Of a DNA stretch of 64,000 nucleotides, positions 18,801 through 21,800 are shown in pieces. The DNA is from Octopus sinensis (Eukaryota): positions 59,334,001 to 59,398,000 of the forward strand of contig NC_043010.1 of NCBI RefSeq assembly GCF_006345805.1, given 5' to 3'. The first letter of the stretch is position 1, and every line of letters begins with the position of its first letter. A program made the position numbers.

Positions 18801-21800
18801 TTATCAAAATTCTTTTATTGAATACAAAGTTAAAAAATCTGATGACTCATTTTCCCTGACAGTTTCCAAAAGAGCTGATGGTATTTCCTCGTTAAAGATT
18901 GTTTTAAAACAGAAATTAGACAGAGAGTTAAAAGAGAAATACAATTTAGAAGTAATTGCTAAAGATGGAGGTTCTCCATCTAAACAAAGTGTATTAAATG
19001 TTGAGATTGTTGTCGAAGATGAGAATGATAATCCACCTGTATTTTCAAAACCACTTTATAATATTTCCATTAGAACCACACACGACAAGACAAAACCTAT
19101 TCTTACTTTGTCAGTGACAGACAAAGATGCGGGTTCCAATAGTAAAATTACTTTCCATTTCAGCCCCAAAACTTCCAGCCAAGCAAAGGGATATTTTGAT
19201 TTAAATGAAAACAGTGGAGAAATATTTTCAACTAAGTATTCTAAATTAGATGAAAAAACAACATATGAACTGTTCATAGAGGCCAGAGATGGGGGTAGTC
19301 CTCCCCTCAGTTCCATAGCAACTGTTTTGGTAAATGTCATCAACCAACACAACAATCCTCCATCTATTGATATTGATTATGTTTCTGCAATCAATGACAA
19401 CACAGCTACCATTTCTGAAGACATCAAAGTTGGTAGTTTCATTGCTTATGTGATGGTCACTGACAATGATGTGGGACAAAATGGAGAGGTCAGCTGTGAT
19501 ATCAAACATGATACATTCAAACTACAGTCAATGGGATCCAAGGAATATAAAATCATTCTAAACAAACCAGTGGACAGAGAAATACAAGGACACTATAACA
19601 TTCCTGTCTCCTGTCAAGATAAAGGATTACCTCCTCTTAAAAGTGTTAAAAGCCTCTCTATCCAAGTGACTGACATCAACGATGTACAACCACAGTTTAC
19701 CAAAGATACATTCCAATTCCTCACCTACGAAAACAAAGATAAAGACTTCCCTATTGGTTTTGTCAATGCCACTGACCCTGATCTTGGATCTGCTGGACAA
19801 CTCACATATTCTCTGCTGCGTAAAGAAAAATCCAATCTCCCATTTCTCATCACCAGTTATGGCTTCATTTCAGCGACCATGTCATTGGACAGAGAGAAAC
19901 AAGATGTGTATAAGTTTGAGGTTTTTGTCAAAGACAATGGAAGCCCATCTCTGAATGACACAGCGAATGTTGTTGTTGAGATTCTAGATCAAAATGACAA
20001 TGCTCCGTATTTTACATATCCTAGTAGTGACCCTTACACGCTAAATGTGCAGTACCATCCGCAGAGTAAGAGTGACATCACAGTTTTGAGAGCCTCTGAT
20101 GGGGACAGTGGAAACAATGCTTTCCTCAGATATGCAATCATACAAGGAAATGATAAACAGTTGTTTAGTATGAACTCACACAGTGGTGCTTTATCCTTCT
20201 CCAGACAAGTTTATCTAAATGATGCTGGAAGTTATGAGCTGGTGTTTGTTGTGAAGGACAGTGGTAGTCCAGTTCAGTCGTCAACAACTAGTGTCACTTT
20301 GGTATTGGCTGTTAGTAACGAGACATCACCAATGTCGAAGAGTGGACCTTTACAATCTTCAGGTCGGGTCCATATGACATGGGTTATTATCATTGTATCA
20401 TCAGCAGTAATAATATCAGTGGCTATTGTTGTTTCTATAACGCTATGTATTATGAAATGTATTAAACACAGAGATAACACAGCTGCTGCCACAAAGAATA
20501 CAGCCTACCAAGGTAGAGCAGAGATGAAACAATTGTTGTACCAGACTAACACTTCTGTTGCTATGTCGAGGAATGCAGAAGAGATGGTGAAGCGGAATAT
20601 CTATTCTGAGAGATCCAAGAGTGAATGTTATGCAGAAGGTCAGCTACAGAACAAATATGAATCTTCAGTTCAGTCGAGAACTTTACCAAAACCTACCCAA
20701 GTAAGTCTTAAGATATTTTACATCTGTGTCTTAAGTTTGAAGTAAAAAATTAGTTTGTGTAATTGTTTATATTATTAATTTCATTTTTTTTATAAATCTT
20801 AATCTTAAGAGTAAATATCCAATGTTTTTCAATTTCTTTTATTTTCATTATACAGAAGTACAGTCAGCCAGTTGTGGTGACTTCGAATGATGATGCTGTT
20901 GAAGTAAGTAGTCTGACATCAACATATCAGACAGGAACACTGTCTTCCCAGCGAAATAACGAACATGGACCCAGTGTAGGAAATCTGAAACATTATGAAG
21001 AAATACCAGAGATGTCAGGTGACTAGTAACATCAAAATCAAAATAGTTCTGATCATTTATCTAATTAAATGTATAATTTGGAACAGCATCTTAATTTTAG
21101 ATTTACCATTAGTGTTAGAATCTTTTTTTACATTGCTGTTAATGTTTTATAGTATTCATAGTATTTATGTAAAAAGCACCCACTACACTCTCAGAGTGGT
21201 TGGCATTATGAAGGGCATCCAGCTGTAGAAACTCTGCCAGATCAAGATTGGAGCCTGGTGCAGCCATCTGGTTTGCCAGCCCTCAGACAAAATCGTCCAA
21301 CCCATGCTAGCATGGAAAGCGGACATTAAACGATGATGATGATTCAAATATTAACTATTTTATTGAATTTTATAATCTATATTTTAAAAGGATGTCAAAT
21401 TAGCTGAGAAGAGAATGTTTTCTACCATAGACTATAGCTCCTCTATTAATATATGAAGATAATAATGTGAGGAGTTTTAAGTATCTGCATCAATACAATG
21501 CCAACCGCTGACCAAAATCTTAATTTTTGATATCCTCACACTGGTATTGAACCCTACCCTCTGGGAAAGAAGCTTAACTCTCAACTGCCATTTGAAGAGA
21601 TAGTTCTAGAGTGTTGCTTGTTGTATAATGCTCAAAATCTACCATAGTTCAAAGAAAGGTAATGGAGAAACAGCTCCAGTAGAACAGGACACATTCCATG
21701 ATCTCCTGACAAAACAATGCTCTACTGGATATTATTTAAAATAACTGATTAAAAAGGATTAAGCTTTGGCCAACTTAATAATTTTAGAATATTTATCATT

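What the first reader, a model, noticed from the sequence alone, without database searches (positions are those of the whole stretch)
19330..20672. A protocadherin constant region apparently maintained by gene conversion rather than by splicing
Seen: unit C 19330-20658 and unit D 29346-30666 differ at only about 14 substitutions plus small in-frame indels over ~1.3 kb. Unit A 1-517 and unit C 20156-20672 differ at 2 synonymous sites, and unit B 11667-12117 is similarly near-identical. EC1-EC2, all introns and both tail exons are barely alignable. The tract starts at the EC3/EC4 linker and stops 28 nt before the splice donor. Established: vertebrate clustered protocadherins join variable exons to shared constant exons, use N-terminal ECs for trans specificity and EC5-EC6 for cis contacts, and show domain-restricted gene conversion. 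Cephalopod arrays arose independently. Inference: here each gene has a variable EC1-3, a constant EC4-6/TM/juxtamembrane core and a private tail, an independent route to a combinatorial cell-identity code.
Basis: partly seen in the sequence, partly recalled or inferred. Interest (0 to 1): 0.85.

Follow-up and report, generated by a model that had tools for sequence, protein, structure and literature searches.

The report
Gene conversion in a mollusc protocadherin array
Four tandem protocadherin copies, two apparently working and two dead, share a nearly identical stretch inside otherwise old, diverged genes, a clear but unsurprising case of one gene copy overwriting part of another.

Summary
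C (18328-20700, an intact six-cadherin exon) and D match at 55-65% over EC1-2. They match at 77-86% over C 19118-19367 and 97-100% over C 19368-20617, then about 50% from 20670. A 1-517 differs from C at 2 of 517 sites; the next 28 nt differ at 13 of 28. Third-codon-position mismatch falls from 47-50% (EC1-2) to 0-5% (EC4 to juxtamembrane). Selection on the protein cannot explain that.

The best explanation is repeated gene conversion between paralogues, with different end points each time.

- D is dead: no ATG, frame changes, in-frame stops and a premature stop in its tail exon.
- B is dead: a stop-ridden remnant with an inversion, a 572-nt deletion and a broken tail exon.
- Both still carry the tract, over different lengths: 1.3 kb in D and 0.46 kb in B.
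- Only C is seen whole, and A is cut by the window edge.

Homogenisation concentrated in EC4-6 is known in vertebrate clustered protocadherins. Gene conversion has already been proposed for cephalopod arrays. Spanning reads and the rest of the array could not be checked.

The parts
1..545 (+). Unit A: 3' end of exon 1 (half of EC6, TM, juxtamembrane), cut by the window edge. The near-identical tract is 1-517; the last 28 nt (518-545) are old sequence. Donor GT at 546.
   Evidence: 2 of 517 mismatches to C, then 13 of 28. Pfam gives a weak Cadherin match.
1167..1373 (+). Unit A tail exon (exon 2): 68 codons plus stop, intact, behind a polypyrimidine tract and AG. The intron (546-1166) carries a dispersed repeat.
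   Evidence: It is 58.8% aa identical to C exon 2 over 51 residues, and 73.6% nt identical.
10853..11656 (+). Unit B: decayed remnant of EC2-EC4 with stop codons. It includes an inverted segment (11453-11567) and ends at a junction that skips C 19574-20145.
   Evidence: tblastn 35% identity over 195 columns, with 5 stops in the aligned frame; a minus-strand piece at 74% aa; nt pieces at 73%, 82% (inverted) and 87%.
11657..12117 (+). Unit B converted tract (second half of EC6, TM, juxtamembrane). The exon-1 end that follows (12118-12142) is 69 nt shorter than in C. Donor GT at 12143.
   Evidence: 6 of 461 mismatches to C and 4 of 451 to A. 4 of the 6 B/C differences change the residue.
12349..12510 (+). 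Unit B tail-exon remnant, frameshifted and with stop codons.
18328..20700 (+). Unit C exon 1: intact 791-codon reading frame from ATG to the donor. It holds a signal-like start, six cadherin repeats, a TM segment and the juxtamembrane part.
   Evidence: open frame. (Pfam Cadherin, 6 stretches, E = 8.7e-77; Cadherin_2). (end-to-end match to protocadherin gamma-B4 EC1-6, 6e6b, E = 2.2e-93). (nearest atlas clusters are mollusc protocadherins).
19338..20660 (+). The finding itself: the tract of C that is 97-100% identical to D. An older intermediate zone lies in front of it (19118-19337, 77-86%).
20856..21026 (+). Unit C tail exon (exon 2): 56 codons plus stop, intact. Intron 1 is 20701-20855 (GC 0.19).
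28431..29353 (+). Unit D: dead 5' half (EC1-EC3). No ATG where C has one, frame changes, and in-frame stops at 29127-29129 and 29253-29255.
   Evidence: pieces in frames 1, 3, 2, 3. (frameshifting indels of 7, 1, 4 and 5 nt; stop-creating substitutions). (stops in 3 of the 4 pieces; ATGs only in another frame).
29354..30666 (+). Unit D converted tract (EC4 to juxtamembrane), inside an open frame at 29259-30719. Donor GT at 30702.
30853..30954 (+). Unit D tail exon with a premature stop after 33 codons. The remainder is decayed.

Best explanation
This is a head-to-tail array of old protocadherin paralogues, spaced 8.5-11.7 kb apart, in a mollusc genome. The 3' part of the large first exon has been overwritten repeatedly by gene conversion between copies.

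Proposed mechanism (inferred, not shown): a break in one copy is repaired from a neighbouring copy, transferring 0.5-1.3 kb without exchanging flanks.

At least two events or donors are needed. End points differ between copies, and the tract is a mosaic of ages.

The process hits working genes (C, probably A) and dead ones (B, D) alike. Recombination produces the 'constant' look; selection for a constant region is not needed to explain it.

My inference is that the pattern feeds itself. Once the 3' part is similar it stays a good recombination substrate. EC1-3, the intron and the last 28 nt of the exon are too diverged to pair. In working genes, selection may also remove conversions that reach the N-terminal domains.
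For: 1. Silent sites are homogenised. C vs D third-position mismatch is 47/100 (EC1) and 55/109 (EC2). It is 6/115 (EC4), 1/110 (EC5), 0/104 (EC6) and 3/109 (TM and juxtamembrane). It returns to 6/12 in the last 42 nt.
2. In the last 28 nt of exon 1, A and C differ at 13 sites. Nine of these lie in six codons that still encode the same residue. A and C are therefore old paralogues under protein constraint. The 517 nt just upstream differ at 2 sites.
3. Both tract ends abut diverged homologous sequence. Intron 1 is barely alignable and exon 2 is 66-74% identical. This excludes a single crossover and a recent duplication.
4. The longest identical run is 343 nt; 0 of 10,000 permutations reached it.
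5. Pseudogenes B and D carry the tract in the collinear position.
6. B's changes look unconstrained: 4 of its 6 differences from C alter the residue.
7. The D tract is a mosaic: 8/301 mismatches against 1/640 (P = 7e-4).
8. Each copy has private differences and its own indels.
9. GC3 is 0.365 in the tract against 0.297 in EC1-3. This is weakly in line with GC-biased conversion.
Against: - No reads were available, so the identity level could be inflated by polishing.
- A's copy sits at the window edge, 2 nt from the point where B's near-identity to C begins. This may mark a repeat-induced contig break.
- Only four units are visible, so donors and direction are unknown.
- C-D differences inside the tract are 10 synonymous to 5 non-synonymous (pN/pS 0.14, P = 2e-4), and D's three tract indels are all in frame. 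A dead recipient decaying freely would not show this. It needs a second, functional donor outside the window, or changes on the C side.
- The 5' tract edge in B coincides with a deletion junction, so its true start is unknown.
Confidence: 0.8

Rival explanations
1. One reading: the shared EC4-6/TM/juxtamembrane block is a selected common module, for instance for cis pairing, kept uniform by conversion. Together with variable EC1-3 it would give a combinatorial identity code.
For: - The block covers the domains that are most homogenised in vertebrate clustered protocadherins. There dS is lowest in EC5/EC6 and EC2-3 are spared (passages of PMC4978886).
- C-D differences in the tract are mostly synonymous: 10 of 15, pN/pS 0.14.
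- All 3 of D's tract indels are in frame. This suggests functional paralogues outside the window share the block.
- A and C, the two apparently working genes, differ at only 2 of 517 sites.
Against: - Two of the three units that can be judged are pseudogenes that carry the tract, so the homogeneity does not need selection.
- Tract extents differ: 1.3 kb in D, 0.46 kb in B.
- The 5' edge is graded, not a domain edge.
- D-private changes that A and B can polarise are 3 non-synonymous to 1 synonymous. This looks like neutral decay.
- Only one full gene is visible, so 'each gene' is untested.
Confidence: 0.15
2. Assembly or polishing artefact: reads from one copy were used to correct, or to build, the others, so the near-identity is not real or is exaggerated.
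For: The window starts at C 20156, 2 nt after B's near-identity to C begins. This could be a contig break at a repeat edge. Identities of 99-100% over hundreds of bases are what mis-polishing produces.
Against: - Each copy keeps private substitutions and indels.
- The tract has different ends in B and D.
- The flanks differ by 40-50%. Mis-mapped reads cannot create the step itself; they can only sharpen it.
- The window has no N in 64 kb. That fits a long-read assembly, which should span repeats of 0.5-1.3 kb (inference).
Confidence: 0.07
3. Recent duplication of whole units, followed by fast, positively selected divergence of EC1-3.
For: A low-divergence 3' part and a high-divergence 5' part would be expected under this reading.
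Against: - Neutral sequence is diverged too: intron 1 is barely alignable and the 5' flanks are about 40% identical.
- Third positions in EC1-2 mismatch at 47-50%.
- The last 28 nt of exon 1 mismatch at 13 of 28 sites, mostly silent.
- Exon 2 is 66-74% identical.
Confidence: 0.01
4. Purifying selection on the protein alone keeps EC4-6/TM similar.
For: These domains are the more conserved ones in protocadherin families generally.
Against: Third-position mismatch is 0-5% in the tract against 47-50% outside it. Two carriers are pseudogenes.
Confidence: 0.01

Closest known systems
Gene conversion within vertebrate clustered protocadherin variable exons. Noonan et al. 2004b, seen only as cited; Etlioglu et al. 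2016, PMC4978886, passages read.
   Same: Tandem paralogous large exons each encode six cadherin repeats plus a TM segment. Homogenisation is concentrated in the C-terminal ectodomains, with dS lowest in EC5/EC6, while EC2-3 stay diverse. dS is used as the diagnostic.
   Different: Vertebrate variable exons are also spliced to shared constant exons. Here each unit has its own tail exon 150-620 nt downstream. The tract here runs through the TM and juxtamembrane part to 28 nt before the donor. Two of the four carriers are pseudogenes.
Cephalopod protocadherin arrays. Albertin et al. 2022, PMC9068888, passages read; Styfhals et al. 2019, PMC6339937, passages read; Albertin et al. 2015, not held, seen only as cited.
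   Same: Head-to-tail arrays of closely related multi-exon genes, interspersed fragments that may be pseudogenes, no shared final exons, and 'homogenization through gene conversion' proposed from phylogeny.
   Different: The passages I read argue at the level of whole genes and trees. I saw no domain-resolved tract, no end points and no statement that pseudogenes are converted. My searches found none. Supplements, and the 2015 paper itself, could not be read.
Short-tract conversion between tandem genes and their pseudogenes, such as the human CYP21A2/CYP21A1P and globin clusters (recalled, from no call).
   Same: Non-reciprocal transfer of a few hundred to about a thousand bases between tandem paralogues, a dead copy among them.
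   Different: In those cases the noted direction is from pseudogene into gene. Here the direction is unknown, and the dead copies look like recipients.

Membership tests
Protocadherin (cadherin superfamily, six-repeat type) | Six extracellular cadherin repeats | tested here: met
   Pfam Cadherin, 6 stretches, E = 8.7e-77. End-to-end match of residues 20-663 to protocadherin gamma-B4 EC1-6, chain 6e6b_A, E = 2.2e-93. Exon 1 of C only.
Protocadherin (cadherin superfamily, six-repeat type) | N-terminal Cadherin_2 domain, a single TM segment after EC6 and a short cytoplasmic part | tested here: met
   Cadherin_2, E = 6e-11, residues 20-103. A hydrophobic run (WVIIIVSSAVIISVAIVVSITLCIM) follows EC6 in the translation. 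No TM predictor was run.
Vertebrate-type clustered protocadherin locus | Many variable first exons spliced to one shared set of constant exons | tested here: not met
   4 of 4 units have their own tail exon behind their own donor and acceptor. In A and C it ends in a stop. No shared downstream protocadherin exon appears in the 33 kb after D. No transcripts were available. PMC9068888 says the same of cephalopods.
Interlocus gene conversion | A step change in silent-site divergence along the alignment | tested here: met
   Third-position mismatch is 47-50% outside the tract and 0-5% inside it. A/C mismatches are 2 of 517, then 13 of 28.
Interlocus gene conversion | Tract bounded on both sides by diverged homologous sequence, so not a crossover or a fresh duplication | tested here: met
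   For A the 5' side is outside the window. For B the 5' side is a deletion junction.
Interlocus gene conversion | Identical run longer than permutation of the variable sites allows (Sawyer-type test) | tested here: met
   Run of 343 nt; 0 of 10,000 permutations reached it, maximum 93. C vs D only.
Interlocus gene conversion | Copies confirmed as separate loci by reads that span unique flanks | not testable with these tools
   No reads and no second assembly were available.
Interlocus gene conversion | In related species, the converted part groups by species and the unconverted part by orthologue | not testable with these tools
   The block is C 19338-20660 in D, C 20146-20606 in B, and at least C 20156-20672 in A.
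   B and D are pseudogenes and carry the block.
   No complex prediction or assay was done. This would need bench work.

The most novel reading that the evidence does not exclude
In this mollusc sub-array the working protocadherin genes share one EC4-6/TM/juxtamembrane module kept uniform by frequent conversion, while selection keeps EC1-3 distinct. Paralogues could then pair in cis through a common module while recognising self in trans. That would be a convergent counterpart of the vertebrate clustered-protocadherin design, reached without constant exons. The dead copies would be bystanders swept along by the same process.

The mostly synonymous C-D differences and D's in-frame indels hint at further functional carriers outside the window.
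Probability: 0.15. Interest if true: 0.7.

Novelty: new member of a known kind. Interest (0 to 1): 0.38.

Why it matters
This is a clean, base-resolved example of conversion in a cephalopod-type protocadherin array. Because dead copies carry the tract, it separates recombination from selection.
- It warns that whole-gene trees and duplication dates for these arrays will be distorted by the 3' half of exon 1. EC1-3, the last 28 nt of exon 1 and the tail exon hold the true history.
- It warns that short reads will multi-map in this block.
- It gives a testable idea for the open question of whether cephalopod protocadherins work like vertebrate ones: EC1-3 as the specific part and EC4-6 as the common part.
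- The window does not show a new way of building a constant region.

Tried and rejected
- Purifying selection alone: rejected by third-position data and the pseudogene carriers.
- Recent duplication with fast EC1-3 divergence: rejected because the intron, flanks, tail exon and silent sites are all diverged.
- Single unequal crossover: rejected because similarity ends before the donor and the downstream sequence differs.
- Insertion of a foreign fragment into B: rejected because the tract lies collinear between B's own EC4 remnant and its own exon end, donor and tail-exon remnant.
- A conserved promoter element upstream of C and D: only one 27-nt match, E = 0.001. Dropped.
- More protocadherin coding after 31 kb: none. 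tblastn at E <= 5 gave one hit at E = 0.39.
- Pfam on the tail exons, the juxtamembrane part and four repeat-associated ORFs: no hit reached its family cut-off.
- Rfam and tRNA scans of the whole window: 0 matches each.
- GC-biased conversion: GC3 0.365 against 0.297. Too weak to use as evidence on its own.
- Papers not held: Albertin 2015 and Noonan 2004b. What I say of them comes from other papers' citations.
- No structure or complex prediction was run. It would not have changed the verdict.

Full report
**What is in the window.** The window is AT-rich DNA with no N. It holds four protocadherin units on the + strand, 8.5-11.7 kb apart.
- Unit C is the only one seen whole. Its open frame runs from the ATG at 18328 to a GT donor at 20701.
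- C has six Pfam cadherin stretches and a Cadherin_2 domain.
- C aligns end to end with the solved EC1-6 ectodomain of protocadherin gamma-B4 (6e6b, E = 2.2e-93).
- Its nearest clusters in the protein atlas are mollusc protocadherins.
- Each of the 4 units has its own short tail exon behind a short intron. In A (1167-1373) and C (20856-21026) it is intact and ends in a stop.
- I searched the exons one by one and built no joined model.

- A 1-517 differs from C 20156-20672 at 2 of 517 sites, both synonymous.
- B 11657-12117 differs from C at 6 of 461 sites and from A at 4 of 451.
- C and D differ within C 19330-20658 by 14 substitutions and two in-frame deletions. A third in-frame deletion lies just beyond.
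- C/D identity in 100-column windows is 55-65% over EC1-2, 77-86% over C 19118-19367 and 97-100% over C 19368-20617. It is about 50% from 20670 into the intron.
- The strong tract starts at the end of the Pfam EC3 match, in the EC3/EC4 linker.
- For A/C the tract ends 28 nt before the donor.
- The longest identical C/D run is 343 nt. None of 10,000 permutations of the variable sites exceeded 93 nt.

**Why this is conversion and not selection or a young duplication.**
- C/D third-codon-position mismatch is 47/100 and 55/109 in EC1 and EC2.
- It is 6/115, 1/110, 0/104 and 3/109 from EC4 to the juxtamembrane part, and 6/12 again in the last 42 nt. The domain limits used there are my approximations from linker motifs and the Pfam EC3 match.
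- The sharpest evidence is the A/C boundary. After 517 nt with 2 differences come 28 nt with 13 differences.
- Nine of those 13 lie in six codons that still encode the same residue. A and C are therefore old paralogues under protein constraint, and only the tract is young.
- Intron 1 is barely alignable, exon 2 is 66-74% identical in all six pairs, and the 5' flanks are unrelated.
- Both ends of the tract thus abut old homologous sequence. This rules out a single crossover and a recent duplication.

D:
- It has no ATG where C has one.
- Its EC1-3 pieces lie in frames 1, 3, 2 and 3, with indels of 7, 1, 4 and 5 nt.
- Stops occur in 3 of the 4 pieces. These include two substitution-made stops at 29127-29129 and 29253-29255 in the frame of the tract.
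- Its tail exon stops after 33 codons.

B:
- It is a remnant with five stops in the aligned EC3-EC4 frame and an inverted segment at 11453-11567.
- A junction skips C 19574-20145, which is 572 nt and out of frame.
- Its exon end is 69 nt shorter than C's.
- Its tail exon is frameshifted and carries stops.

Both still carry the tract in the collinear position. This is good evidence that recombination produces the uniformity. It undercuts the idea that the block is a constant region that each gene maintains.

**More than one event.**
- The tract spans C 19338-20660 in D but only C 20146-20606 in B.
- In front of the D tract lies a zone of intermediate identity inside EC3.
- Within the D tract, C 19338-19638 has 8 mismatches in 301 nt and C 19639-20278 has 1 in 640 (Fisher P = 7e-4).
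- Site patterns are mixed. A and D share a base at C 20340 and the nine bases after the boundary, while C alone differs at 20445.

**Results that cut the other way.**
- C/D substitutions in the tract are 10 synonymous to 5 non-synonymous (pN/pS 0.14; P = 2e-4 against neutrality, with no transition-bias correction).
- D's three tract indels are all multiples of three. A dead recipient decaying freely would not show this.
- The synonymous excess sits in the older sub-tract: 6 synonymous to 2 non-synonymous in C 19338-19638.
- The four D-private changes that A and B can polarise are 3 non-synonymous to 1 synonymous.
- My reading is that part of D's tract came from another, functional paralogue outside the window.
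- Separately, window position 1 corresponds to C 20156, 2 nt after B's near-identity to C begins. I cannot explain this. It may mark a contig break at a repeat edge, which makes A the copy least secure against an assembly artefact.

**Comparison with what is known.**
- In vertebrate clustered protocadherins dS is lowest in EC5/EC6, and EC2-3 escape conversion (passages of PMC4978886, citing Noonan et al. 2004b, which I could not read).
- For cephalopods, PMC9068888 describes same-direction arrays of multi-exon genes and fragments that may be pseudogenes. It also reports no splicing to shared final exons, and it invokes 'homogenization through gene conversion' (passages).
- PMC6339937 attributes the similarity of clustered octopus genes to recent duplication or conversion, citing Albertin et al. 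2015 (passages).
- Searches found no domain-resolved description for cephalopods. Supplements are closed and the 2015 paper is not held, so such an analysis may exist unseen.
- I file this as a new member of a known kind.

**What stayed unchecked.**
- There were no reads, no transcripts, no other part of this genome and no other animal genome.
The remaining genome collection holds only bacteria and archaea, so I did not use it.
- The extent of the block across the array, its behaviour in sister species and the expression of A-D are therefore open.

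Noticed in passing
window 1 (compare B 11657-11666 and C 20146-20156): The window begins 2 nt after the point where B's near-identity to C starts. This is unlikely for a randomly placed window. It may mean the contig starts at a repeat edge.
   Followed up: partly
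1167-1373, 12349-12510, 20856-21026, 30853-30954: Each unit has one short tail exon, 66-74% identical between units. A and C share a C-terminal KHYEEIP motif; B has KHEEIP. No Pfam family matches.
   Followed up: partly
548-981; also 33577-34007, 41248-41641, 58275-58523 and 40677-41029 (inverted): A dispersed repeat of about 400 nt, 76-85% identical between copies. One copy sits in A's intron 1, directly after the donor.
   Followed up: no
6262-6446, 21167-21343, 24345-24671, 39162-39424, 62765-63110; tandem units at 45180-45318 and 62936-63114: A second dispersed repeat family of about 175 nt on both strands, with internal 66-67-nt tandem units. No tRNA or Rfam match.
   Followed up: no
6503-8569 and 58812-61638 (inverted); 58834-59607 vs 60840-61616: Decayed copies of a longer element, 72-74% identical, with ORF fragments. 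From memory these resemble non-LTR retrotransposon reverse transcriptase. Pfam gave no hit above cut-off.
   Followed up: partly
23151-23442, 36302-36427, 54400-57200, 57988-58268: Blocks of micro- and minisatellite: a 24-nt unit repeated 12 times, TA runs, and a 129-nt unit repeated 2.2 times at 98%.
   Followed up: no
31000-64000: No protocadherin-like coding in the 33 kb after unit D (tblastn at E <= 5). This is either the end of the sub-array or a long repeat-rich spacer.
   Followed up: partly
11453-11567: Inside pseudogene B, a segment of EC4 is present as an inverted copy, 82% nt identical to C 19463-19347. It lies next to the direct copy.
   Followed up: partly
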